Position numbers and translations under genes: made by a program. The notes below the pieces were generated by a model. That model did no database searches and had not been told where the DNA came from. It saw nothing but the letters and a program-made list of their open reading frames with translations. A DNA stretch of 64,000 bases. It comes from a phage. Positions 860 to 59,518 of this stretch are shown here, piece after piece. The stretch's first letter is position 1; every line of letters begins with the position of its first letter. The stretch lies in NCBI GenBank assembly GCA_018865545.1, contig GCA_018865545.1_3633.1; one strand, written 5' to 3'.

Positions 860-2860
860 ATGAAGATGACAAAATGGGGGGCTGGTGCATACTTTGAAGG
901 TGAGAACCCAAAAGCATTCCGACCTACAAAAAGTGGTGGTAAAGTGAATTATCAGAAAAAAGAAGAAGAAACTGTAGAGTCTGTCCTAGATAGTACAAGG
1001 ATCTTGGCTGTCCCCCAAATGGATATTAGTTTAGATGCAGCTAAGTACTTCAAGATCAGATCTGCAACAGATTTGAAAGACGGTACTACAGTGGTGGCAA
1101 CATATCTTCCATATTATGACAAATATGGGAAATTGACAGGGTACAAAAAACGAGACTGGACTGTTCCGAAAGAGAAAAAGGGGCATTTCTCTGTTGTTGG
1201 CACAGTAAAGGCTTCCTCTCAATTTTTTGGTCAACATGAGGCCTCTATGGGATCTGGTAAAAAACAGATCTTTATTGTTGAGGGGGAAGGTGATGTAACG
1301 GCTGGCTGGCAAGCTGGGTTTGAGTATATTAAATTCCTTCATAGCAATCCTAACACGTCACGTTCAGTACGTGAGTGGGCAAACAATGCTTTAAAAGGCA
1401 TCAAAGCAATTCAGGATGGGGAAGAGGTTTCTAATTGCCCGACATTACCTTTTATCGGGTTGAACTGTGGTACAGCCAATGCTGTGGATACATTCGCCCA
1501 CAACGAAAAGTTTATCAGGGAATATGAAAAGATTGTCCTTGGCTTAGACAATGATGAAGCCACAGCAAGGGAAAAAGAACACAGAATTAAGAAAGGTAAG
1601 GAAGCCACAGATGATGTCGCAGGTTTTTTACTGTCTGACAACATCTATGTTGCACGATACCCAAATGAGCGCAATGACCCAAATGGTGTTAAAGATATCC
1701 GGGATATTTACAAAAAAGGTAAATGGATGGATATCTGGAATATGTTTGCTAAAGCGCAGGATAAATATGTTCCAGACAAATTGATTGGGTTGGAGAGAAT
1801 ATCTATTGAAAATCTCCGTAAAAAGAAAAAAGATGGCGTTCCGTTGCCGTGCTTTCCTCGTTTGTATGAACTAACAAGAGGCCCACGAACAGGAGAATTG
1901 TGGACACTGACAGGCCCATCTGGAGCTGGGAAATCAACTTTCTCAAGAAAGATTGAGTATGCAATTATCGAGTACCTCCGTAACATGGATATTCCCCGAT
2001 TAGACGGTTGGAAAGAGAACGAGAAAATTGCAATTATTCGTCTAGAGGAGGATGAGGAGGAGTCTGTAAACAGCTTATATGCTGAGGAGCTAAAGATTGA
2101 CCCGAAAGCATTTGTTGCAGACCCAGAACAATTCCTTACCGATGAGCAGCACTTAGCTATACACCAACGATGGATTGCCGAAGATAAGGTTAAAATTTTC
2201 GATCACTTTGGTTCAATACCAACTGACCAATTACTACAAAAATTGAAACAGATGGTTTTCCTTGATGGGTGTAGATGGATTATCTTAGATCACTTATCGA
2301 TGGTGATATCAGGATTAAAATCCGATAACGAGCGAAGAGATTTAGATAACATCATGACGGAATTGGCTGCCTTCTGCAAAAAATATGACGTGTTTATCCT
2401 CAGTATCAGCCATATGAAGCGTAAAGAGATCCAGATTCCAAAAGACAAAGATGGTAATCTCTTACCGTTTTGGTATCCTGTGCGGAAAGAGGATCTCCGT
2501 GGGTCAGCAGCACTCGAACAGTTATCATGGGTTGTATTAGGTGTTGAACCTGAAGAACTCCCTGATCGCTCTCGTGGGCGTATTCGTAGCGTTGTAATGA
2601 AAAACCGTCCACATAAAAAATTAGGTATAGCGGATACTCTGATTATGGATGATAATGGTCAGTTTTCTGATGCGTCAGGATGGGTGTGGGAAGACAATAT
2701 GTTTAAACTCAACGGGGAGGTAATGCTAAGACCTAAATCAATGGTTCAAAGTTTAGAGCTTGAAACACCTGTGGGTAAAATTGCTGTTTCTGTTCCTCAA
2801 CAAGAACCTGCTGTTGTTATTGAGGAACCTGAAGATTTGGACAACGACACACCATTTTGA
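860..2860 (+). CDS. Bifunctional DNA primase/helicase (TOPRIM primase + DnaB-family helicase)
   Basis: 666 aa ORF; IVEGEGDVTAGWQAG (TOPRIM-like acidic motif), Walker A TGPSGAGKST, Walker B-like IILDHLS; RBS aaggagaag upstream of ATG. Confidence 0.8.
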   Translation: MKMTKWGAGAYFEGENPKAFRPTKSGGKVNYQKKEEETVESVLDSTRILAVPQMDISLDAAKYFKIRSATDLKDGTTVVATYLPYYDKYGKLTGYKKRDWTVPKEKKGHFSVVGTVKASSQFFGQHEASMGSGKKQIFIVEGEGDVTAGWQAGFEYIKFLHSNPNTSRSVREWANNALKGIKAIQDGEEVSNCPTLPFIGLNCGTANAVDTFAHNEKFIREYEKIVLGLDNDEATAREKEHRIKKGKEATDDVAGFLLSDNIYVARYPNERNDPNGVKDIRDIYKKGKWMDIWNMFAKAQDKYVPDKLIGLERISIENLRKKKKDGVPLPCFPRLYELTRGPRTGELWTLTGPSGAGKSTFSRKIEYAIIEYLRNMDIPRLDGWKENEKIAIIRLEEDEEESVNSLYAEELKIDPKAFVADPEQFLTDEQHLAIHQRWIAEDKVKIFDHFGSIPTDQLLQKLKQMVFLDGCRWIILDHLSMVISGLKSDNERRDLDNIMTELAAFCKKYDVFILSISHMKRKEIQIPKDKDGNLLPFWYPVRKEDLRGSAALEQLSWVVLGVEPEELPDRSRGRIRSVVMKNRPHKKLGIADTLIMDDNGQFSDASGWVWEDNMFKLNGEVMLRPKSMVQSLELETPVGKIAVSVPQQEPAVVIEEPEDLDNDTPF

Positions 2861-13892: not shown

Positions 13893-14249
13893 ATGATGTC
13901 TTTTTTAGAGTGGGTCCAGGTGCATAATAACTGGTTCCCTGCTTTATCGTTTTATGTGTTGTGTTCTATTTGGGCTTTCATTTTATCGTATAAAGGGACA
14001 TGGAAACACGTTGTTGTCTCTTTTGTTATGTTCGTTATTCTTGGGGCAACAACTATTAACTACTTTCTCCTTTACGAGGATGGCTACAAAGAGTACACAA
14101 AAAACTGGGAATCGTGCACAACACAAAAAGCATTGGATGAAATGTATGTCTTCGATAATGTAAAAGAGAAATGTATGAAGCCTGTTGTTGGCTTTGTACC
14201 AACAGAGAGCGTAGATATACTGGAAATTAAAAATGGAGATTGGACATGA
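13893..14249 (+). CDS. Hypothetical membrane protein
   Basis: 118 aa; two hydrophobic segments (WFPALSFYVLCSIWAFILS, VVSFVMFVILGATTINYFLL). Confidence 0.45.
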   Translation: MMSFLEWVQVHNNWFPALSFYVLCSIWAFILSYKGTWKHVVVSFVMFVILGATTINYFLLYEDGYKEYTKNWESCTTQKALDEMYVFDNVKEKCMKPVVGFVPTESVDILEIKNGDWT

Positions 14250-14521
14250 CAAACAAAAAGTTAACAGGTGCACAACTTGTTGAGAATCTCAAAGAGAAAC
14301 TTCGCAACAACCCCTCTTTGGAAGAGGAATTGCTACTTAAATATTTCGAAGATAATGTGGATATGCTCCCTGTGGAATATGGTTGTCCAGAGGGTTTCCA
14401 CAAAGCATTTCGACAAGTGGATGTGTGTAAGAAAGGCTATCAAGATATGGTTATTTGGAGTATCCTTTCAGGAGGGGATTCGGAAAGGGTTTGGGAAGTT
14501 ATAGAAGAGTTTTTCTCTTGA
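14240..14521 (+). CDS. Hypothetical protein
   Basis: 93 aa ORF. Confidence 0.45.
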   Translation: MDMTNKKLTGAQLVENLKEKLRNNPSLEEELLLKYFEDNVDMLPVEYGCPEGFHKAFRQVDVCKKGYQDMVIWSILSGGDSERVWEVIEEFFS

Positions 14522-14528
14522 GGTTTTT

Positions 14529-14720
14529 ATGAGATTTTTATCTGCGTTAAGCATTCTCTTCATAGCGTTGAAGTTGTGTGAGATTATAGACTGGTCTTGG
14601 TGGTTAGTTCTTGCCCCTCTATACCTACCATGGGCAATTGTTGTCATGCCCCCTTTGATTATAGCGGTTACAGCATTTGTCCTGTCTTTTCTCCAAGAAA
14701 AAGACAAAAAATCATCTTGA
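14529..14720 (+). CDS. Small membrane protein
   Basis: 63 aa, almost entirely hydrophobic (two predicted TM helices). Confidence 0.4.
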   Translation: MRFLSALSILFIALKLCEIIDWSWWLVLAPLYLPWAIVVMPPLIIAVTAFVLSFLQEKDKKSS

Positions 14721-14745
14721 CATACATGCATGCATAGTGTAAGAT
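14717..14745 (+). promoter_or_regulatory. Sigma70-like promoter candidate (TTGACA-N17-TAAGAT)
   Basis: ttgaca 14717-14722, 17 nt spacer, taagat 14740-14745, about 30 nt upstream of ORF 14777. Confidence 0.4.
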
Positions 14746-14776
14746 GTGATACTCAACAACCTTGTAAGGAATAGAC

Positions 14777-15118
14777 ATGCCTAAAGAAAAACAAACACCT
14801 GAAAATAAAGAGGATATCCGTTTTCTTGATCTTGATGAAGGGCAGTTTGGAACAATCGTATACTTGTCCAGCGCCAGTCACCAGATGGGAACAGTAATCG
14901 GGTCGAAAGAAATTCGAGAAGAGATGCTAAAGCTCATCCAAAGTGGTAACTATAAAACGGTAGAGGATGCAATTTCATGGATCCGAGGACACCGCAACAA
15001 TTTGTTGAAATTAAATACTGCTTCCACTTTTGCATTGAACCTGCTAAATCAAGTTGAAGATTTAGTGGTAGATAAAATGTTGAGCGTTGGAAACGAAACT
15101 GCTGAAGGCGTTAAGTAA
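14777..15118 (+). CDS. Hypothetical protein
   Basis: 113 aa ORF downstream of promoter candidate. Confidence 0.5.
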   Translation: MPKEKQTPENKEDIRFLDLDEGQFGTIVYLSSASHQMGTVIGSKEIREEMLKLIQSGNYKTVEDAISWIRGHRNNLLKLNTASTFALNLLNQVEDLVVDKMLSVGNETAEGVK

Positions 15119-15132
15119 TAAAAGGAGAGAGA

Positions 15133-16350
15133 ATGAGCGTAATCAATGAATTTAAGAATCCAATCAACGGAAAAGTTGATTATTTTGCGAAAGGTTTTAT
15201 CAAGTATGTTAATATTCGTCCAGTGAAAAACGCTGACGCAGATGGTATCCGGCGTACCCATATCCCTGCTCGCAACGGGCAACCAGCTAAAGTTATTGAG
15301 GCTACGCACTCAATCAGTTTCCTGATGCAAGAGGTTGACGATAATAACAACGTTATTGACCCACAGAGCCAAGGTGAGTGGATTTCTATGGGTGAGAAAA
15401 AACTTCACCCAAGCCATGCAGACAAAATTCAGGTGAAATTTGATTCTGGATACAAAGATATTGTGGCGGGGATGGTTGTTTCTTTCCCTCTCAAAATTAC
15501 TAAGAGTGGGGATAAAACGTATACAAACGGCACTTTAAACGGAAAGACCTTCAGCATTCTCGATGAAAGTAAAGTTGGTCAAAGTGCTCCTCGCCAGCAA
15601 TCTTCGACCCAATCACCTGCAAATGCCCAAGTTAAAGGCACTAAAATTTATGGTGAGATTGCTGCAATCGTTGGCAATGTGGTGACAGTTAATGATGAGA
15701 AGAATGGTCAAGGAAACCTTGTCCTCACAGATGAGCAATTGGCGCAAGTTGTAGTAGGTGGTCGTGTCACTGCGATTGTTAACCTAAGTGATGGTACGGT
15801 CTTAAGTGGATTTAAAGCCTATGGTCCTGCTGGGCAGACTAAGAAGTCATCTGGCGGCTATGATGCTTTAGGTGTTGCTTGTGGACACGGCATCAACGGT
15901 GTGAAGGAACTCATTAAAGCTGGTTTTAAGATCGAGGATCGTCTCTCTGCCGCGAAGATGGTTCACAACGCTACAGTAGCTATGAAGGCTTTTGTGGCAG
16001 AGAAAACAGGAAAAGATGTGGAATCTAATGCGGTGGGCGCTAGTGCGGGTAATGCTATCTTAGTGGCTTGTGCTTTGTATCATCAAACCGATAAACTAAC
16101 AGAAGATAGTATTCTGAATGCCGCCAAAGATGTTTACCTAACACTATCAGAGCCGTTTTACGAGTTCTTATCTAAAGGTGATGGGAAGACACAACAAAAG
16201 AACAAACAGCATGCTAAGGAACCTTTGAACAGTTCCAATAGCGATATTCCGAATATGGAATCGCCAGCACCTGAATTTGACTATGATGAAGATATCCCTT
16301 TCAGTCCTGTAGGTCTACAGTACGGTAAACATCGGGTATACATCCTGTAA
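15133..16350 (+). CDS. Putative single-stranded DNA-binding protein-like
   Basis: 405 aa; acidic FDYDEDIPF near C-terminus resembles the SSB C-terminal tip (DDDIPF) but is followed by 15 more residues; RBS aaggagaga. Confidence 0.35.
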   Translation: MSVINEFKNPINGKVDYFAKGFIKYVNIRPVKNADADGIRRTHIPARNGQPAKVIEATHSISFLMQEVDDNNNVIDPQSQGEWISMGEKKLHPSHADKIQVKFDSGYKDIVAGMVVSFPLKITKSGDKTYTNGTLNGKTFSILDESKVGQSAPRQQSSTQSPANAQVKGTKIYGEIAAIVGNVVTVNDEKNGQGNLVLTDEQLAQVVVGGRVTAIVNLSDGTVLSGFKAYGPAGQTKKSSGGYDALGVACGHGINGVKELIKAGFKIEDRLSAAKMVHNATVAMKAFVAEKTGKDVESNAVGASAGNAILVACALYHQTDKLTEDSILNAAKDVYLTLSEPFYEFLSKGDGKTQQKNKQHAKEPLNSSNSDIPNMESPAPEFDYDEDIPFSPVGLQYGKHRVYIL

Positions 16351-16363
16351 ATACCTCATAAAA

Positions 16364-16390
16364 ATGGAGGGGAGATCCCCTCCATTTTTT
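16364..16390 (+). terminator. Rho-independent terminator
   Basis: ggagggg-agat-cccctcc hairpin followed by attttttg, right after stop of 15133-16350. Confidence 0.7.
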
Positions 16391-16535
16391 GATTAAAGTC
16401 TAGGTGTTTATTAGGGATTTATACAACAGTGGCGATCTTATGATAATTACATACTCCTATAAAGTGTGGATTATTTGTAATAAATATTTACTTGTAAAAA
16501 TAAGTGATGTCCTACAAAATTATAAAAGAGCTTTA

Positions 16536-17168
16536 TTAAACCACCGTTACTGTTTCTTTGTGGGTGGCAGAAACATCTTTGTATGTACCTTTTAATCCAC
16601 ATTGTGCCTCACCAGAGGATATGCATGTAAATATCCCGCTAGGAGCCATGCTTATGATGTTAGGTGTTTCTGCAAACCCATAGACAGAGAAGTCATCTTC
16701 TTCCATGATCTCTGGCGGGAATACATCAAAACCAACCATATTAGGGGATGGGTTGCCAGGATCAAAAGAAGGATCGCCTCTATAGACAAACCAGAACCTG
16801 TCCCCGATTGATCTATTTCCTATAGGGTCAACGTCCAATCTCAACTCTTCTACATTTCCAGTTATAACATCGGATAAAGTTATATCTCCAACTGTCTTTG
16901 CTGTCATCAATATACTGAAGTAACCTTCTGAAATAAAGGATATTTCCCCATCTTTATTAACAGAGACCGAATCCGGCGTATTAGCTTCAAAAGTTATATC
17001 ATATATATCAGCCCCTTCGGGGGAAACCGCATACGCCAGCTTTTTAGAACTACCTTTTAATGCAATACCTATAGGTTGTAAAGTTATGGATTGTGCCGCT
17101 ATCTTGTTAATAATTGTATTATAGAAACAAGGAATTGGATACATTAAACCTCCTAAAACAAAGGCCAC
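16536..17168 (-). CDS. Tail-associated protein with Ig-like (Big_2-type) domain
   Basis: 210 aa; pattern LAYAVSPEGADIYDITFEANTPDSVSVNKDGEISFISEGYFSILMTAKTVGDITL typical of bacterial Ig-like domains. Confidence 0.4.
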   Translation of the reverse strand: MAFVLGGLMYPIPCFYNTIINKIAAQSITLQPIGIALKGSSKKLAYAVSPEGADIYDITFEANTPDSVSVNKDGEISFISEGYFSILMTAKTVGDITLSDVITGNVEELRLDVDPIGNRSIGDRFWFVYRGDPSFDPGNPSPNMVGFDVFPPEIMEEDDFSVYGFAETPNIISMAPSGIFTCISSGEAQCGLKGTYKDVSATHKETVTVV

Positions 17169-53917: not shown

Positions 53918-53935
53918 GATCTATTTCCTGTTTGG

Positions 53936-54008
53936 TGTGACGGACAGGGTTCGAACCTGTGACCACCTAGTCTTCAGCAAGGCACTCTACCAACTGAGTT
54001 ACCGTCAC
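53936..54008 (-). tRNA. tRNA-Phe (GAA)
   Basis: Acceptor GTGACGG/CCGTCAC, D arm ACTC-AGTTGGTA-GAGT, anticodon loop CTGAAGA, T arm ACAGG-TTCGAAC-CCTGT; CCA encoded. Confidence 0.8.
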
Positions 54009-54016
54009 ATGATTGG

Positions 54017-54090
54017 TAGGCGATGAGGGACTCGAACCCCCAAAATTCAGGTTCTAAGCCTGACATGTATACCAATTCCATCAATCGCCC
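54017..54090 (-). tRNA. tRNA with anticodon UAG (Leu by anticodon) but short variable arm, atypical
   Basis: Acceptor GGGCGAT/ATCGCCT (G1-U72), anticodon stem TCAGG/CCTGA, loop CTTAGAA, 5 nt variable region, T arm GGGGG-TTCGAGT-CCCTC; CCA encoded. Confidence 0.5.
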
Positions 54091-54104
54091 ATTTATATCA
54101 ACAG

Positions 54105-54296
54105 TTATGGTTTTCCACGATACACAGAAATAGTTTTCCCATTGGCATTGATAACATAAGCTGTCTGATCCTCAGACAAAAACACTTTTTGGTCAATACC
54201 TGAAATAGCTATAGACTTTTGATGAGCACAATACCCAACAATTTTCCCACAAAAAATTTGTTCATCATTTGGAGATACGACTTTAACTGTTAACAT
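54105..54296 (-). CDS. Hypothetical small protein within tRNA cluster
   Basis: Start moved to internal ATG 54296 because the annotated N-terminus overlaps tRNA-Pro. Confidence 0.3.
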   Translation of the reverse strand: MLTVKVVSPNDEQIFCGKIVGYCAHQKSIAISGIDQKVFLSEDQTAYVINANGKTISVYRGKP

Positions 54297-54341
54297 GGTA
54301 TCCTCTGTACATTTCTGCTTTGATATGTATATGTTTGTTGG

Positions 54342-54416
54342 TCTGTCCGGTTGGATTTGAACCAACGACCTGATCATCCCAAGTGACCCGCGCTACCCAA
54401 GCTGCGCTACGGACAG
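54342..54416 (-). tRNA. tRNA-Pro (UGG)
   Basis: Acceptor CTGTCCG/CGGACAG, D arm GCGC-AGCTTGGGTA-GCGC, anticodon stem GGTCA/TGATC, loop CTTGGGA, T arm GTTGG-TTCAAAT-CCAAC; CCA encoded. Confidence 0.8.
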
Positions 54417-54503
54417 AGAAATGTAGATTTTAATTGTCCCAGAATCTACTAACTGGTATCGCTGGCTAGGTGATATCTGTGACTTGATTAAGTCAAGAAT
54501 TGG

Positions 54504-54591
54504 CGGTTCCTGAAGGATTCGAACCTTCGGTGGGGAGATTCCTCCCAACGGCTTAACAGGCCGTCACCATCGACCACTCGGTCAAAGAACC
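54504..54591 (-). tRNA. Type II (long variable arm) tRNA with anticodon GUU (Asn by anticodon), atypical
   Basis: Acceptor GGTTCTT/AGGAACC, 3 bp D stem with GAGTGGTCGA loop, anticodon stem ACGGC/GCCGT, loop CTGTTAA, variable hairpin GGGAG-GAAT-CTCCC, T arm GAAGG-TTCGAAT-CCTTC, discriminator G, CCA encoded. Confidence 0.5.
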
Positions 54592-54603
54592 AGAATATTT
54601 TGG

Positions 54604-54677
54604 TGGATCTGGTTAGATTCGAACTAACAATCCCTCGATTAAAAGTCGAGTGCCTTAAACCATTTGGCTACAGATCC
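54604..54677 (-). tRNA. tRNA-Lys (UUU)
   Basis: Acceptor GGATCTG/CAGATCC, anticodon stem CTCGA/TCGAG, loop CTTTTAA, T arm GTTAG-TTCGAAT-CTAAC; CCA encoded. Confidence 0.75.
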
Positions 54678-54907
54678 TTTAAATTATCTTTAAAATAGCT
54701 AATTACTCGCACATAATTAGCTATACGCAACAGCCCTCTAGGGAGGGCACACTAATGATAGATTACGATTACATGACCATCATGAGTGTTTGACTTACGC
54801 CAGTAAAGAGCGGACTGCTCTGGGGTATCGGTAAAGTGGTTACCGCCACTTGCCGAAGATTTACTCTGCTAAAGTAAGAATAACAAGCTACATTAAAGAT
54901 AACTTGG

Positions 54908-54993
54908 AGGAGGCTGACAGAATCGAACTGTCACCATATCTCTACAGCGGGACTGGGTTCAAACCAGCTTGTGCACCATGCACCCCAGCCTCC
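54908..54993 (-). tRNA. tRNA-Ser (UGA), type II, atypical D arm
   Basis: Acceptor GGAGGCT/AGCCTCC, anticodon stem GCTGG/CCAGT, loop TTTGAAC, long variable region, T arm GACAG-TTCGATT-CTGTC; D region forms a tight GTGCA/TGCAC hairpin; CCA encoded. Confidence 0.55.
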
Positions 54994-55074
54994 AAAAATT
55001 GCCTCTGCCGAGAATATACACCCAACAAAGACGGCGCTCAGGTCCGAAGAAATCTGAGCCTTGACATACAGTGG

Positions 55075-55165
55075 AGGAAGATGCCAGACTTGAACTGGCA
55101 CACCCATTTCTGGGTTACTATCTCCTTAGCAGGGAGACCCCTTACCAAATTAGGGTTAATCTTCC
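55075..55165 (-). tRNA. tRNA-Ser (GCU), type II
   Basis: Acceptor GGAAGAT/ATCTTCC, anticodon stem TCTCC/GGAGA, loop CTGCTAA, long variable arm, T arm GCCAG-TTCAAGT-CTGGC; CCA encoded. Confidence 0.65.
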
Positions 55166-55189
55166 AATACCTTAGTAATTAAAAACTGG

Positions 55190-55276
55190 CGGAGAAGGAG
55201 AGAATCGAACTCTCAAGCCGTTTTACCAGTCAGCACATTTCCAATGTGTTTTCGTCGCCAATCGATTTGCTTCTCC
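55190..55276 (-). tRNA. tRNA-Ser (GGA)-like, type II, tentative
   Basis: Acceptor GGAGAAG/CTTCTCC, T arm GAGAG-TTCGATT-CTCTC, candidate anticodon loop TTGGAAA with imperfect stem; CCA encoded; D arm not well resolved. Confidence 0.45.
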
Positions 55277-55288
55277 GTTTTAACTTGG

Positions 55289-55361
55289 CAGGGGATGGTT
55301 GATTCGAACAACCGATCACGGGGTCAAAGCCCGTTGCATTAGGCCACTATGCTAATCCCCT
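55289..55361 (-). tRNA. tRNA-Gln (UUG)
   Basis: Acceptor AGGGGAT/ATCCCCT, D arm GCAT-AGTGGCCTA-ATGC, anticodon stem ACGGG/CCCGT, loop CTTTGAC, T arm GGTTG-TTCGAAT-CAACC; CCA encoded. Confidence 0.8.
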
Positions 55362-55365
55362 TTTG

Positions 55366-55444
55366 CACGAGAGTGAGGAATCGAACCTCTTAGTCACTGG
55401 TTTTGGAGGCCAGCCTTCACCCAGTGAAGTTACGCTACTCTCAT
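55366..55444 (-). ncRNA. tRNA-like sequence, unassigned
   Basis: Acceptor-like pairing ATGAGAG/CTCTCGT and T arm GAGG-TTCGATT-CCTC, but central region forms a long CACTGG/CCAGTG helix instead of canonical D and anticodon arms. Confidence 0.3.
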
Positions 55445-55450
55445 TAAAAA

Positions 55451-56008
55451 CTATTTTCGGAAAGGACTTATGAAAAATGCCAACATCACTCTCTCTCTTG
55501 AAAAAGCTCTGTCTTCAGGAACCACACTCTTCAGTTTCCAACCGACATAAATTCGCCAGTAAAATTGTTTTCCAAACAATCTAAAAGACGGGACAAACGC
55601 GAATACACCCCACGCATTGTCATTCCACATCAACAAATAGCCTTGTTGATTATCCTCCACATCAGAGCTTACATGGATGTTTCCTTTCCACTTTGTCACA
55701 GATGTGATTTCACGTCCAAGTGCGTGATAGGAGAAATTGTAGGCTTTATTTCTCCACAACCAAGCAACTCGTTGCAGATAAACACCAAAACTCCCTATCT
55801 TACGAACTTCTGCCCATCTCTCTATGTGTCCTTTATCACCATCTATAGGATTATCATATGTTTCCATCCACCTGAAAATATAAGGTAGATGCCCTGTCTT
55901 CTCATTATAGAACGGAACAACAAAAGGAGCCAGAATAACACAGAGAACCGACATAACTGGGTCAAGAGGTGCTAACAGAATCCACGATAAATATTTCAAG
56001 TATCTCAT
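55451..56008 (-). CDS. Hypothetical membrane protein
   Basis: 185 aa; N-terminal hydrophobic helices (LSWILLAPLDPVMSVLCVILAPFVVPF); Trp-rich. Confidence 0.45.
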   Translation of the reverse strand: MRYLKYLSWILLAPLDPVMSVLCVILAPFVVPFYNEKTGHLPYIFRWMETYDNPIDGDKGHIERWAEVRKIGSFGVYLQRVAWLWRNKAYNFSYHALGREITSVTKWKGNIHVSSDVEDNQQGYLLMWNDNAWGVFAFVPSFRLFGKQFYWRIYVGWKLKSVVPEDRAFSRERVMLAFFISPFRK

Positions 56009-56235
56009 GCAGGATCAAGCCTAGATATAATGTACTGGTTTAAATCTGAATATGGGAAGATACTTTCAAAGATAACCTGTTTAAATCTGAAACCGCACAA
56101 ACCGAAAAGTACCTTCTGACACTCCCCAAAAGAACAATCTTTACCAACTTTTATCACAACCGTATCGGCAACCTGCACACTTTCTATCTCTTTAGGTTCA
56201 TGATGCCGTACTATGATTACTTTAGAAACCATCAT
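56005..56235 (-). CDS. Hypothetical protein
   Basis: 76 aa ORF overlapping downstream gene start by 4 nt. Confidence 0.4.
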   Translation of the reverse strand: MMVSKVIIVRHHEPKEIESVQVADTVVIKVGKDCSFGECQKVLFGLCGFRFKQVIFESIFPYSDLNQYIISRLDPA

Positions 56236-56363
56236 ACTCGTCCGTATTAAAGCCTTCTACTATAGATAGTAGATGTCTAGGGTTGGACCGCAAACTCAAC
56301 CCCATGGAATTTGTTACGGTCTTCAGTTGACCCAAGCGGATTTCATTGACATCTTTTAACTGG

Positions 56364-56435
56364 AGCATCCAGAGGGTATCGAACCCTCGACTACAGCTTG
56401 GAAGGCTGTAGTTTTCCCAATTAAACTATGGATGC
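56364..56435 (-). tRNA. tRNA-Gly (UCC)
   Basis: Acceptor GCATCCA/TGGATGC, D stem GTTT/AAAC, anticodon stem ACAGC/GCTGT, loop CTTCCAA, T arm GAGGG-TTCGATA-CCCTC, discriminator U as expected for Gly; CCA encoded. Confidence 0.8.
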
Positions 56436-56443
56436 ATATTTGG

Positions 56444-56516
56444 TGGGAGTGGTAGGCTCTGCCCCTACGTCCTCTCGATTATCGGTCGAGCGATCTACTA
56501 ACTGATCTACACTCCC
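56444..56516 (-). tRNA. tRNA-Ile (GAU) with unusual T loop
   Basis: Acceptor GGGAGTG/CACTCCC, D arm GATC-AGTTAGTA-GATC, anticodon stem CTCGA/TCGAG, loop CCGATAA, T stem GTAGG/CCTAC but loop GGCAGAG lacks TTC; CCA encoded. Confidence 0.6.
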
Positions 56517-56587
56517 AAACTGTACTGACCCAACAACCACGATTGGAGGGTATCGTCACACATCAAAGCCAGTACAGATTCAGTTGG

Positions 56588-56674
56588 TGTGCCGTGATAG
56601 AGTCGAACTACCCGAGTCCCTTTCGAGACAGGAGATTTACAGTCTCCCCCGCTACCCCTACGGTCTAACGACAC
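56588..56674 (-). tRNA. tRNA-Tyr (GUA), type II
   Basis: Acceptor GTGTCGT/ACGGCAC, anticodon stem GGAGA/TCTCC, loop CTGTAAA, long variable arm, T arm GGTAG-TTCGACT-CTATC; CCA encoded. Confidence 0.65.
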
Positions 56675-56675
56675 A

Positions 56676-57023
56676 TTAACCTTGTTTGAATTGAACAATA
56701 TCCGTCGAGAATGGTTTAGCTGCCTTAATAGGAGCTTTTTCTGAGTTATCTTTTTCGAGTAACTCTTCGTTTTCCTCATCAAAGTAATCAGAAAGCATCT
56801 GCTCACCTTTCTCAATAACATAACGAGCGATATTTTCTCTGATATTGTCTTTTGTATTCACATTCTTCATCAAATCCCTAAGAACCTGATGAGCTTCAGG
56901 AATCATTGCAATCAGATTCGTTTTCAAATCTAGGATATTTTTCTCTAACTGAATTGCATTAGATTCCTCTTTCAGAGGACGACCTTTCCCTCTTCTACGT
57001 TTTGTAAGCTGCTTAGTAGCCAT
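56676..57023 (-). CDS. Hypothetical protein
   Basis: Start moved to internal ATG 57023 (MATKQLTKRRRGKGRP...) because the annotated 5' part overlaps tRNA-Cys. Confidence 0.45.
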   Translation of the reverse strand: MATKQLTKRRRGKGRPLKEESNAIQLEKNILDLKTNLIAMIPEAHQVLRDLMKNVNTKDNIRENIARYVIEKGEQMLSDYFDEENEELLEKDNSEKAPIKAAKPFSTDIVQFKQG

Positions 57024-57111
57024 TTTAAAACCCCACTTAATGATATTATCAAATAAAAACATATCTGTCAAGTGGTATTTTAACATATTTACCAAGAAAT
57101 TGAAAGTTTGG

Positions 57112-57185
57112 AGCACGGTGTCGGACTTGAACCGACATATATCTGTTTTGCAGACAGATCCGTAACCAAATTCCGGCAACCGTGC
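57112..57185 (-). tRNA. tRNA-Cys (GCA)
   Basis: Acceptor GCACGGT/ACCGTGC, anticodon stem TCTGT/ACAGA, loop CTGCAAA, T arm GTCGG-TTCAAGT-CCGAC, discriminator U as expected for Cys; CCA encoded. Confidence 0.8.
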
Positions 57186-57264
57186 AATAAGTACCCCGAG
57201 TAGAGAACCTATAGAGTGGGTCTTACGAGCCGCGCTGACGATTCTCAAGTTGGGGTTAATCTGG

Positions 57265-57338
57265 TCGAGGAGACAGGATTCGAACCTGTGACCTACGGCT
57301 TAGAAGGCCGCTGCTCTATCCAACTGAGCTACACCCCG
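57265..57338 (-). tRNA. tRNA-Arg (UCU)
   Basis: D arm GCTC-AGTTGGATA-GAGC, anticodon stem GCGGC/GCCGT, loop CTTCTAA, T arm ACAGG-TTCGAAT-CCTGT; acceptor has one U-U mismatch; CCA encoded. Confidence 0.7.
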
Positions 57339-57538
57339 AGAATAAGAATGCTTTATAGTGTATGGTTACTCAACCTCACCCCAACTTCCACAGTTGGTGC
57401 TCTACGAGCATGACTACGTTTGAAATCAACGTTGCGCACCGATAGCTTTCTCACGCATTGTATGCCTCATTCCCAACAAATGCTGATCAGGCATTTATAT
57501 CGAATAATATAAGCTAATACACTATAAAACAAACTTGT

Positions 57539-57635
57539 GGCTGGGTGATGGAATCGAACCACCTATGTATTCAACGGCTAGCCCGTCTATTTTCAGGATT
57601 ATAAATCCTCGCCCTTGCCAAAGGGCTTACCCAGC
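57539..57635 (-). ncRNA. tRNA-like sequence with oversized variable region, anticodon uncertain (possibly UAU)
   Basis: Acceptor GCTGGGT/ACCCAGC, perfect D arm GCCC-TTTGGCAA-GGGC, T arm GGTGG-TTCGATT-CCATC, but about 30 nt between anticodon arm and T arm. Confidence 0.35.
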
Positions 57636-57640
57636 ATTGG

Positions 57641-57712
57641 TGCTCGCAGCAGGTTTCGAACCTGCAACCCCCTGCTTACAAGGCAGGTGCTCTACCGTTG
57701 AGCTATACGAGC
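57641..57712 (-). tRNA. tRNA-Thr (UGU)
   Basis: Acceptor GCTCGTA/TGCGAGC, D arm GCTC-AACGGTA-GAGC, anticodon stem CCTGC/GCAGG, loop CTTGTAA, T arm GCAGG-TTCGAAA-CCTGC; CCA encoded. Confidence 0.8.
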
Positions 57713-58077
57713 AATAAGACATTGCTTCCGATTAACAGCCTTGAGGCTTTACAGACCATATCTTGTGAGCCATAACCTGTGCCAAGGATTTCAGATGATA
57801 AACGAAATTTTATCTTTCAAGAATTAACTTTCAAGTTTCATCTTTTACATTTGACCATTGACCTTTATTGTATGAACTTTTACTTAGTGGAAACAACAAG
57901 GCATCTTCGTGTGCCTCGCTGCATCTATGTCCTGTATTATCCTCATACATATACGATACATGGTGGGGAATATTTAACCTCCAATCCCCAGGAGGCAAGA
58001 TGATGTAAACTTCGTTAATCAAAAGCAATGTTTTAAATTTCAAAACAAAGGAACGATAATGATATTATCAGAGCCTT

Positions 58078-58725
58078 TTAGAGAGAGTGCTCAATCTCAA
58101 TTTCTGTCTTAGCGTTTGACTCAGACAACGCAAAATCAACGTTAGACAAGAAATCTTCAATCTCTTCTTCAAGAGAACGAATCTTAGAAGCCAGTTCAAG
58201 AGGATCCACAACCGATGGTGTGTTCATCATTCGAATGGGAGCTTCCACAGTCTTAATCTGCTCTGCATCTGGCGCTTTATCACGTTGGATATATGGCGCT
58301 CTGGCATTTTCAAGTTTATCTTCCAGAGATTTTTCTTCTTTTGCCAGAAGAAGCTGTGCAGAAGCACGCTGTGCACAAAGTTTGTTTAACAACTCTTGTT
58401 TAAAGCAAATCGTCCGTTTGCGTTCGATTGCCTCAGCAACTGTCATAGACACCTTACCAATTTTGACAATTGTCTCAGCATTAGACTTGACAATTTTTGC
58501 CTTCAGTTCATCGCGAACTGCCAAGAGGTCTTGCAGACTTTGATAGTCGTTGATCGCAGATTTCTTAAAATCATCAACAGAGCCGATATAACCAGGAATC
58601 TTACAATTATTCTCAGTTCCTTTTGCAATCTTAATACATTCAAGGTTATAAATACGCTTATTGATCTTATCTTCAATCTTAGAGATAGAAGCAAGTGCAC
58701 GAGTTACGGAAATCTTAGTAGACAT
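58078..58725 (-). CDS. Hypothetical protein
   Basis: 215 aa ORF, predicted coiled-coil segments. Confidence 0.45.
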   Translation of the reverse strand: MSTKISVTRALASISKIEDKINKRIYNLECIKIAKGTENNCKIPGYIGSVDDFKKSAINDYQSLQDLLAVRDELKAKIVKSNAETIVKIGKVSMTVAEAIERKRTICFKQELLNKLCAQRASAQLLLAKEEKSLEDKLENARAPYIQRDKAPDAEQIKTVEAPIRMMNTPSVVDPLELASKIRSLEEEIEDFLSNVDFALSESNAKTEIEIEHSL

Positions 58726-59066
58726 TCAATCTCTCCTATGTAAATTAGCTTTGATAAAGTAACTATACAGAAAAACAAAAACTATGTCAAGAAAAATTTT
58801 AATCTTTTACAGCATCTTTTATAGAATCACAAAGATCTTGGACAAGATCAGATGTCGGTGACAAAATCATCTCGTCTGCTGCTGCTATAGCATCTGATGC
58901 TAAATCAACAAACGGAGTTGTTACCGCAGCAGTCACTTCAACAGCCGTTGTTGTTACATCGCTTGCAATCTTAAGCAAAGATCCTATCATAATCTCAACC
59001 CTCCTGAATGTCCGTGATTCCCTTTGTTTAATGACGCTGGCTCACGGTGGCACTCTCGTCAGTAAA

Positions 59067-59390
59067 TTATTTTTTAGTTTTCTTAACGTTTTCTACAGGA
59101 GTGCTTGTTTTCTGTTTCACTTCTCGTTCACGCTTTGTTTTCCCAGTACGGATACGATAGGAAGCAGAAATCACTTCACCACCAATGACACGAGACACAG
59201 ATTCATAATACATTTCAGTATTACCGTCTTCATCTTTGCGTTTTTTCAGAACTGCTACAGTTTGCGTTTTGCCACCAAGACGCACATCGTGCGGTGCAGA
59301 ATGTGTCTGCGTGGATTTTGATTCAAACTGAAAAGGTTGCTTGATCGCCTCGATAGCTGATACCTTTTTAGCAGACTGTTTCTTAGCCAT
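59067..59390 (-). CDS. Hypothetical basic protein (possible nucleic-acid binding)
   Basis: 107 aa, Lys/Arg-rich N- and C-termini. Confidence 0.4.
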   Translation of the reverse strand: MAKKQSAKKVSAIEAIKQPFQFESKSTQTHSAPHDVRLGGKTQTVAVLKKRKDEDGNTEMYYESVSRVIGGEVISASYRIRTGKTKREREVKQKTSTPVENVKKTKK

Positions 59391-59445
59391 TAAGTTTTCT
59401 CCTCCGAAAACAATAAACCTAGTTTATTTCGTGTGCCACATTTGG

Positions 59446-59518
59446 TGGCCCCTGCTGGACTTGAACCAGCGACCAAGCGATTATGAGTCACCTGCTCTAA
59501 CCACTGAGCTAAGGGGCC
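59446..59518 (-). tRNA. tRNA-Met (CAU), second copy (initiator, elongator or Ile-lysidine type not resolved)
   Basis: Acceptor GGCCCCT/AGGGGCC, D arm GCTC-AGTGGTTA-GAGC, anticodon loop CTCATAA, T arm GCTGG-TTCAAGT-CCAGC; CCA encoded. Confidence 0.75.

What the first reader, a model, noticed from the sequence alone, without database searches (positions are those of the whole stretch)
15133..16350. SSB-like tip motif placed internally in a 405 aa protein
The sequence PEFDYDEDIPF closely resembles the acidic C-terminal tip of bacterial SSB (DDDIPF), which normally ends the protein, but here 15 further residues follow it. This could be a C-terminal extension that changes partner-protein binding, a fusion, or a sequencing frameshift. 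The N-terminal 380 aa do not obviously look like a classical OB-fold to me.
Basis: partly seen in the sequence, partly recalled or inferred. Interest (0 to 1): 0.4.

Follow-up and report, generated by a model that had tools for sequence, protein, structure and literature searches.

The report
Mobile cap on phage SSB tip
The 15 residues after the SSB-like "DIPF" tip are a conserved, apparently undescribed peptide "cap" that moves between phage replication proteins, often with a homing endonuclease gene, and that should change what the tip can bind.

Summary
The ORF at 15133..16350 encodes 405 aa, with PEFDYDEDIPF at residues 380-390 and 15 more residues (SPVGLQYGKHRVYIL) after it.

It is not a frameshift or a gene fusion. 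The exact protein recurs in at least 6 independent contigs. The same extension, consensus [AS]-P-[IV]-G-L-Q-Y plus 7-9 mostly hydrophobic residues, follows the tip in 12 of 56 homolog clusters, about 232 phage genomes and 43 IMG/VR loci.

It sits on at least four unrelated scaffolds: this family (PHROG 4477), classical OB-fold SSBs, a DnaB-type primase/helicase, and other SSB-like proteins.

Synonymous sites are saturated, yet motif and length are kept, so selection acts on the peptide.

The cap comes and goes between 97-99% identical genes, with the breakpoint exactly after the Phe codon. It often arrives with an HNH homing endonuclease gene whose ATG lies inside the cap. This window carries the cap without the endonuclease.

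The body models as OB-like barrels plus a helical domain. It is homologous to Bas52_0087, the SSB-like trigger of the DRT10 defence system.

Inferred, not shown: the cap removes the free Phe carboxylate that host SSB-partner pockets need, so it masks or retargets the tip.

The parts
15133..16350 (+). CDS of the 405-aa SSB-like replication protein (PHROG 4477 family; homolog of rV5 gp209, phi92 gp156 and Bas52_0087)
   Evidence: phrog_4477 E=8e-156 over residues 1-390; Bas52_0087 38% identity, E=9e-71
15133..15567 (+). N-terminal beta-rich (OB-like) domain, residues 1-145
15640..15822 (+). Second small beta-barrel, residues 170-230
15865..16173 (+). Four-helix domain, residues 245-347. It contains D244 and Y343, the equivalents of the Bas52_0087 DRT10-escape positions D252 and Y351.
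   Evidence: preprint 10.64898/2026.04.29.721553
16183..16269 (+). Disordered linker, residues 351-379
   Evidence: pLDDT below 50 from residue 351 to the end
16270..16302 (+). SSB-type acidic tip PEFDYDEDIPF, residues 380-390
   Evidence: invariant D383, P389 and F390
16303..16350 (+). Tip cap SPVGLQYGKHRVYIL (residues 391-405) plus TAA stop
16360..16390 (.). Bidirectional intrinsic terminator between the convergent genes: A5, an 8-bp GC stem, then T6
   Evidence: RNA fold -22.3 kcal/mol, z = -4.7; terminator scan hit on the minus strand
16303..16572 (.). 270-nt segment with no homology to Av-05. It replaces 1419 nt of Av-05 and holds the cap, the terminator, a spacer and the 3' end of the tail gene.
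   Evidence: blastn: homology 14000-16302 at 97.5%, resuming at 16573 at 89%; alignment
16536..17144 (-). Short (202 aa) tail protein allele, equal to the N-terminal third of the 647-aa Av-05 protein. It is the neighbour swapped in with the cap.
   Evidence: phrog_32204 positions 1-202 of 655
860..2860 (+). Primase/helicase (666 aa) with an uncapped acidic Phe-terminal tail (...EEPEDLDNDTPF*). The same tail carries the cap in Mydovirus and GAP31 phages.

Best explanation
SHOWN. The gene encodes the phage's SSB-like replication protein. It has two OB-like barrels, a helical domain, a disordered linker and an SSB-type acidic tip.

The 15 residues after the tip are one copy of a conserved short linear motif, called here a 'tip cap'. 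Its consensus is [AS]-P-[IV]-G-L-Q-Y-x(2-3)-hydrophobic-hydrophobic-x-[C/A/V]-hydrophobic-COOH, and it is 14-16 aa long. In every copy recovered here it directly follows a [DE]-x-[IVT]-P-F tip; most were retrieved with tip-containing queries.

The cap is under purifying selection as a peptide.

The cap is mobile. It is gained and lost between near-identical genes by replacement of the DNA between the Phe codon and the downstream terminator. It has spread to unrelated tip-bearing proteins.

In many genomes it forms one cassette with an HNH homing endonuclease gene whose start codon lies inside the cap. The window carries the cap-only state. The cap arrived on a 270-nt swapped segment that also changed the neighbouring tail gene.

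INFERRED. Every characterised SSB-tip pocket in host partner proteins clamps the alpha-carboxylate of the last Phe. A capped tip should therefore no longer dock, or dock much more weakly, into host partners such as ExoI, RecQ, PriA and chi. The conserved APIGLQY...hydrophobic-COOH segment would then offer a new terminal handle for a different partner, not yet identified and probably host-encoded.

The conserved tip-coding DNA probably serves as the upstream homology arm that lets the cassette jump between genes.
For: Family and fold; preprint 10.64898/2026.04.29.721553.

Cap is recurrent:
- 12 of 56 homolog clusters found through the protein body carry an extension, and all 12 extensions are this motif.
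- About 232 phage records cover at least 80% of a 26-aa tip+cap query.
- 43 IMG/VR loci and 9 bacterial genome contigs carry it.

Scaffolds: PF00436 SSBs, a DnaB_C primase/helicase, PHROG 4477 proteins, and 176-, 239- and 268-aa proteins with no Pfam match.

Peptide-level selection:
- Pairwise synonymous difference is about 0.8, i.e. saturated, while the first 7 residues are nearly invariant.
- The stop codon falls 7-9 codons after the Tyr in 51 of 51 cases, against 3% in the other two frames.
- phi92 versus nieznany caps differ by 6 synonymous and 0 non-synonymous changes.

Mobility:
- The nearest relative of most capped clusters is capless, at 97-99% identity.
- The breakpoint is exactly after the Phe codon in window vs Av-05, rV5 vs Bas52, nieznany vs ESCO13, P0022 vs P0024, and primase/helicases identical over residues 1-97.

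Endonuclease link:
- Annotated endonuclease CDSs start inside the cap in rV5 and nieznany.
- A second endonuclease type (HNH_3+AP2) follows a capped primase/helicase.

Need for the Phe alpha-carboxylate in partner pockets: PMC10164576.
Against: - There are no binding data. Masking and retargeting are inferred from what is known about host partner pockets.
- Strong sequence conservation argues for a specific partner, but none was identified. Genes next to capped SSBs are diverse.
- Cap presence or absence between 97-99% identical proteins suggests the effect on the phage may be small or conditional.
- In Mydovirus both the SSB-like protein and the primase/helicase are capped. So a free terminal Phe is not essential for those replisomes, unlike what I recall for T7 gp2.5 and gp4.
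- In Vequintavirus and Phapecoctavirus the cap is seen only together with the endonuclease gene, as one indel. This fits a passenger role.
Confidence: 0.5

Rival explanations
1. The cap is a functionless passenger of a selfish element. It is simply the 5' end of a homing-endonuclease cassette that lands after the Phe codon. It supplies the stop codon for the SSB gene and the start region for the endonuclease gene. It persists after endonuclease loss because point mutations cannot remove it, and because it splits the endonuclease target site.
For: - Cap plus endonuclease gene is a single indel relative to capless alleles in two genera.
- The endonuclease ATG lies inside the cap.
- In a spread sample of Vequintavirus records from the phage collection, the five capped ones all have an endonuclease annotated under the match and the capless ones listed do not.
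- Sequence divergence is concentrated around both junctions, as expected for endonuclease target-site immunity.
- Cap-only alleles show a possible short remnant of the endonuclease 5' end.
Against: - Synonymous sites are saturated while motif and length are kept. A scar should decay into variable tails.
- Selection is in the SSB reading frame, not the endonuclease frame. The endonuclease N-termini that overlap the cap are not conserved.
- Whole genera and many small Vibrio and marine phages carry the cap with no endonuclease gene nearby.
Confidence: 0.2
2. The cap is a C-terminal degradation or processing signal. A hydrophobic end on a long disordered tail would be recognised by ClpXP, ClpAP, FtsH or Lon. 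This would limit the level of the protein, or trim its tail.
For: - 41 of 46 distinct caps end in a hydrophobic residue, with small residues at position -2.
- Some caps end ...IYAL, ...LYALA or ...IHAL, which resembles the ssrA tag ...NYALAA (my own knowledge of that tag).
- The tail is predicted to be disordered.
Against: - The most conserved part, APIGLQY, is not needed for a simple hydrophobic degron.
- The endings are varied (CM, CI, VL, HAMP, ALS).
- No protease link was found, and nothing here could test it.
Confidence: 0.12
3. The cap is a counter-defence adaptation. It hides the tip of the phage SSB-like protein from host systems that respond to such proteins, for example DRT10 acting through ExoI (SbcB), or other systems that sense phage SSBs.
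For: - The capless homolog Bas52_0087 is the DRT10 trigger. The authors suggest its tip interferes with ExoI.
- Presence/absence polymorphism among near-identical proteins is typical of arms-race traits.
Against: - DRT10 also restricts Stephanstirmvirinae. Their phi92-like BASEL member PaulScherrer carries a capped protein. The trigger in that phage is not known.
- Any extension would hide the tip, so this does not explain the conserved sequence.
Confidence: 0.1
4. Sequencing or assembly frameshift, or a chance read-through in this one sequence.
For: None beyond the unusual position of the tip.
Against: - The identical protein and gene context occur in at least 6 contigs from independent samples.
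- A homologous cap occurs in hundreds of genomes.
- The difference from Av-05 is a clean segment replacement, not a single-base indel.
Confidence: 0.01

Closest known systems
Bas52_0087 of Escherichia phage RudolfGeigy (Bas52), with rV5 gp209 and phi92 gp156: the PHROG 4477 SSB-like protein
   Same: Same family: 38% identity over residues 1-390 and the same domain order. The tip is invariant. The escape positions D252 and Y351 are conserved as D244 and Y343. The gene position, just before the tail-fibre genes, is the same.
   Different: Bas52_0087 ends at ...FDDDIPF with a free carboxylate, whereas the window protein carries the 15-aa cap. rV5 gp209 and phi92 gp156 are capped too, but I found no paper that mentions it.
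Bacterial SSB C-terminal tip (SSB-Ct, DFDDDIPF) and its partner-protein pockets
   Same: An acidic run followed by I-P-F at the end of a disordered linker, on an ssDNA-binding-type protein.
   Different: In SSB the Phe is the last residue and its alpha-carboxylate is a main contact (PMC10164576). Here the Phe is internal. The protein body does not match PF00436 or TIGR00621.
T7 gp2.5 (SSB) and gp4 (primase-helicase) acidic tails that end in Phe
   Same: In this phage group both the SSB-like protein and the DnaB-type primase/helicase carry acidic tails ending in Phe, alongside a T7-like DNA polymerase (annotation). The parallel with T7 rests on my own knowledge of that system.
   Different: As I recall, T7 needs the aromatic residue at the very end. 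Here a conserved 15-aa cap can follow it, in some phages on both proteins.
Free-standing HNH homing endonuclease genes of large phages (phrog_1035 and phrog_2340 types; T4 seg/mob-like behaviour)
   Same: Insertion next to a conserved gene, presence/absence polymorphism among close relatives, and sequence divergence clustered at the junctions.
   Different: The cassette changes the protein product of the neighbouring gene by adding a conserved peptide to its interaction tip. The window itself has no endonuclease gene.

Membership tests
PHROG 4477 / Bas52_0087-type SSB-like protein | Full-length profile match | tested here: met
   phrog_4477 E=8.3e-156, residues 1-390 against profile 1-393
PHROG 4477 / Bas52_0087-type SSB-like protein | Conserved acidic ...D-x-P-F tip after a disordered linker | tested here: met
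   D383, P389 and F390 invariant in 49 sequences; disorder from residue 351
PHROG 4477 / Bas52_0087-type SSB-like protein | OB-like barrels plus a helical domain | tested here: met
PHROG 4477 / Bas52_0087-type SSB-like protein | ssDNA binding | not testable with these tools
   Needs a gel-shift or fluorescence assay with purified protein
Classical bacterial/phage SSB (PF00436, TIGR00621) | OB domain that matches the SSB profile | tested here: not met
   No Pfam or NCBIfam hit
Classical bacterial/phage SSB (PF00436, TIGR00621) | Tip Phe is the C-terminal residue | tested here: not met
   15 residues follow F390. NCBIfam SSB models end at the Phe even in capped SSBs such as epsilon34 gp35.
Tip-cap motif (defined in this work) | Starts directly after [DE]-x-[IVT]-P-F | tested here: met
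Tip-cap motif (defined in this work) | [AS]-P-[IVM]-G-L-Q-Y core | tested here: met
   The window has S-P-V-G-L-Q-Y.
Tip-cap motif (defined in this work) | Total length 14-16 aa with a hydrophobic end | tested here: met
   15 aa ending ...VYIL; 46 of 46 distinct caps are 14-16 aa long
Homing-endonuclease cassette (cap plus HNH gene) | Endonuclease ORF that overlaps or follows the cap | tested here: not met
   No ORF and no significant tblastn match to the rV5 or nieznany endonucleases in 16280-16620 (best E = 0.35). A terminator follows the cap directly.
Homing-endonuclease cassette (cap plus HNH gene) | Endonuclease cleavage of cap-free or endonuclease-free alleles | not testable with these tools
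   Needs in vitro cleavage mapping or co-infection crosses

The most novel reading that the evidence does not exclude
A homing-endonuclease-linked mini-cassette uses the near-universal DNA that encodes the SSB acidic tip as a landing pad. It writes a conserved 15-residue peptide onto the interaction tip of replication proteins (SSBs, SSB-like proteins, primase/helicases). The peptide is a functional short linear motif. It switches the tip from the host SSB interactome to another conserved partner, or hides it from host nucleases and immune sensors. A selfish element would thus edit a protein-interaction hub.
Probability: 0.3. Interest if true: 0.85.

Novelty: new variant of a known kind. Interest (0 to 1): 0.66.

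Why it matters
The SSB C-terminal tip is a textbook interaction hub, and its last Phe is thought to have to be the end of the chain. A conserved, widespread peptide placed after that Phe challenges this view. It can be tested directly with peptides.

The protein family is also the trigger of an anti-phage system (DRT10), and phage SSBs are sensed by several other defence systems. Natural capped and uncapped pairs at 97-99% identity are ready-made experiments.

The link to homing endonucleases suggests a way for selfish DNA to change a neighbouring protein's interaction end.

For annotation, current SSB models stop at the Phe. The cap therefore goes unnoticed, and genes are easily suspected of read-through errors.

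Tried and rejected
- Single-sequence AlphaFold2 gave pLDDT 35 and was useless. It was replaced by the alignment-based model.
- A profile search with 44-aa tails returned only 24-77 aa fragments annotated as partial SSBs, so it gave no census of scaffolds.
- An exhaustive phmmer search with the 41-aa tail gave 7 hits. The long ones are spurious matches to repeat proteins.
- Endonuclease remnant in the window: 'TSCKYLIK' against rV5 'THCKRCIK' scores E = 0.9, not significant.
- Looking for a partner through gene neighbourhood failed. Upstream genes (ERF, RecT, RdgC-like, exonucleases) and downstream genes (methyltransferases, endonucleases, others) are too diverse.
- Recoding (frameshift or read-through) was considered and dropped. 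There is no stop codon after the Phe, and no slippery site is shared by all alleles.
- Beta-clamp binding motif, PDZ-type ligand and lipidation box were considered from memory. The cap does not fit those consensus patterns. None was tested.
- DRT10 evasion could not be tested. The per-phage heat map is a figure and its text is not held.
- Literature searches for GLQY+SSB, IPFAP, DDDIPF+phage, and homing endonuclease+ssb gene found no description of the cap.

Full report
OBSERVATION

The ORF at 15133..16350 (+) encodes 405 aa. PEFDYDEDIPF is residues 380-390 (nt 16270-16302). It is followed by SPVGLQYGKHRVYIL and a TAA stop at 16348-16350. An 8-bp GC hairpin flanked by A5 and T6 at 16360-16390 is a bidirectional terminator between this gene and a convergent tail gene.

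The window is a Vequintavirinae-type phage. Its closest deposited relatives are Av-05 and TH18, at 95-97% nt identity. In those phages the gene is 390 aa and stops right after DIPF. Homology to the window ends at the last base of the Phe codon, 16302, and resumes only at 16573.

The identical 405-aa protein, with the same neighbours, occurs in at least 6 contigs from independent samples. A sequencing error is therefore excluded.

WHAT THE PROTEIN IS

Pfam and NCBIfam give nothing. PHROG 4477, a family of unknown function, matches residues 1-390 at E=8e-156.

A search of the large protein collection found 56 homolog clusters. In a 49-sequence alignment the tip residues D383, P389 and F390 are invariant.

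AlphaFold2 with that alignment (pLDDT 76) gives four regions:
- a beta-rich domain, residues 1-145
- a small barrel, residues 170-230
- a four-helix domain, residues 245-347
- a disordered tail from residue 351

The BASEL phage Bas52 (RudolfGeigy) protein Bas52_0087 is a family member with 38% identity. A 2026 preprint describes it as SSB-like, with two OB folds and an FDDDIPF tip. [quoted passage not shown] Its escape positions D252 and Y351 correspond to the conserved D244 and Y343 here.

ssDNA binding remains untested.

THE EXTENSION IS A CONSERVED MOTIF

Of the 56 clusters, which were found through the protein body, 44 end at the Phe. The other 12 carry 15-16 extra residues. All 12 extensions are the same motif, for example APIGLQYGRNFIHCI, APIGLQYANHTIYVL, AYLGLQYPSHAIHVLF and APIGLQYGISLLHAMP.

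A 26-aa tip+cap query is covered at 80% or more in about 232 phage records. A degenerate DNA pattern found 43 IMG/VR loci and 9 bacterial contigs, mostly marine gammaproteobacteria and probably prophages.

The motif sits on unrelated scaffolds:
- classical OB-fold SSBs, such as Vibrio phage V039C and Salmonella phage epsilon34 gp35
- the PHROG 4477 family, including rV5 gp209 and phi92 gp156
- a DnaB-type primase/helicase of Mydovirus phages that ends ...DDDTPF-APIGLQYAKHAIYVI
- further SSB-like proteins of 176, 239 and 268 aa with no Pfam match

In every copy recovered it directly follows the acidic ...P-F tip, although most were retrieved with queries that contain the tip.

Across 46 distinct caps, the first seven positions are A 43/46, P 45, I/V 44, G 45, L 46, Q 44 and Y 45. 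Length is 14-16 aa. The last residue is hydrophobic in 41 of 46.

SELECTION ACTS ON THE PEPTIDE

Third codon positions are saturated, with pairwise synonymous difference about 0.8. All four Ala, Pro and Gly codons and six Leu codons are used. The first seven codons were constrained by my search pattern. The body-ascertained set and the loci fetched through it show the same thing.

Two statistics are free of that ascertainment. First, the stop codon lies 7-9 codons after the Tyr in 51 of 51 cases, against 3% for the other two frames of the same DNA. Second, phi92 and nieznany caps differ by six synonymous and no non-synonymous changes.

THE CAP IS MOBILE AND LINKED TO HOMING ENDONUCLEASES

For most capped clusters the nearest relative is capless, at 97-99% identity. 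The left breakpoint is always right after the Phe codon, and where both flanks were aligned the right one lies just before the terminator. This holds in:
- window vs Av-05
- rV5 vs Bas52
- nieznany vs ESCO13
- P0022 vs P0024, where only 60 vs 39 nt are exchanged
- primase/helicases that are 100% identical over residues 1-97

In rV5 and nieznany an annotated endonuclease gene starts inside the cap. Its ATG is formed by the TAT-GG of the Tyr-Gly codons.

Homologous endonuclease genes (phrog_1035 and phrog_2340) sit behind caps on classical SSBs, on PHROG 4477 proteins and on a 268-aa scaffold. A different HNH_3+AP2 endonuclease follows a capped primase/helicase.

In Vequintavirus and Phapecoctavirus, cap plus endonuclease gene is a single indel, with extra sequence divergence at both junctions.

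Cap-only alleles characterise the phi92-like and PVP-SE1-like records sampled and occur in many small Vibrio phages.

My reading is as follows. The cap is an older, functional feature of some SSB tails. An endonuclease family settled immediately 3' of it. The highly conserved tip-coding DNA then served as the upstream homology arm, so that cap, or cap plus endonuclease gene, could be copied into any tip-bearing gene. This last step is inferred.

THE WINDOW ITSELF

The window is a cap-only allele. There is no endonuclease ORF or significant remnant.

The cap lies on a 270-nt segment (16303-16572) that replaces 1419 nt of Av-05. This leaves a 202-aa tail protein in place of the 647-aa one.

The primase/helicase of the same phage (860..2860) ends ...DLDNDTPF* and is uncapped.

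MECHANISM (INFERRED)

Characterised host pockets for the SSB tip share three features: a hydrophobic pocket for the last Phe, a basic lip that anchors its alpha-carboxyl group, and a basic ridge for the Asp residues (PMC10164576). A capped tip lacks that carboxylate. It should therefore be masked from ExoI, RecQ, PriA, chi and similar partners.

The conserved core and hydrophobic end suggest a new, specific partner. Because the cap is shared by very different phages of gammaproteobacteria, and gene neighbours are not consistent, a host partner is more likely than a phage one.

Rival readings are a passenger scar, a degron and defence evasion. They are weighed in their own sections of this report.

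NOVELTY

Full-text searches found no description of the motif. Curated SSB models end at the Phe.

I rate it a new variant of a known kind: a capped, mobile form of the SSB-type interaction tip.

Noticed in passing
window 16536-17144 (-) vs L001 5227-7170: The gene next to the cap is a 202-aa tail protein that equals only the N-terminal third (59% aa identity) of the 647-aa Av-05 protein. The C-terminal 450 aa, probably the receptor-binding part, are absent. The short form is the same in all contigs that carry the 405-aa protein.
   Followed up: partly
window 860-2860 (+): The DnaB-type primase/helicase ends in an acidic Phe-terminal tail (...EEPEDLDNDTPF*), like T7 gp4. The same tail is capped in Mydovirus and GAP31 phages, in some followed by an endonuclease gene.
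   Followed up: partly
window 53933-59518 (-): A cluster of 15 tRNA genes: Phe, Leu, Pro, Asn, Lys, three Ser, Gln, Gly, Tyr, Cys, Arg, Thr and Met.
   Followed up: no
window 16307-16320: The cap DNA contains the near-palindrome CTGTAG-GT-CTACAG, formed by the P-V-G-L-Q codons. It is not conserved in other caps, so it is probably chance.
   Followed up: partly
L006 2544-3167 (rV5), L003 3053-3547 (nieznany), L075 3663-4091: The endonuclease ORFs overlap the last 9-10 cap codons in another frame. Their first residues (MAKVESTHC, MVETSCIAS) are not conserved, whereas the zinc-finger part that starts at the cap's stop codon is conserved.
   Followed up: yes
L073 3670-3731 vs L077 3673-3713: In a cap-only allele the 11 nt after the cap stop (GATGTGATTTT) resemble the 5' end of the nieznany endonuclease gene (GGTTTGTTTCAA). 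This may be a remnant of a deleted endonuclease gene, but it is too short to test.
   Followed up: partly
L005 2647-3081 (Salmonella phage NINP13076): The CDS annotated as a 144-aa 'single-stranded DNA-binding protein' is only the C-terminal helical domain plus tail of a PHROG 4477 protein. This is probably a truncated gene call or a broken gene.
   Followed up: no
phage collection records MG065656, MG065658, MG065677, MG065690: Several records labelled 'Campylobacter phage' (C3, C7, A13b, A135) carry rV5- or phi92-type genes that are nearly identical to those of E. coli phages. The host labels look doubtful.
   Followed up: no
L065 (IMG/VR contig end): A 640-aa ORF joins an unrelated N-terminal body to a capped SSB tail at the end of a 4-kb contig. 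This is probably an assembly or wrap-around artefact.
   Followed up: no
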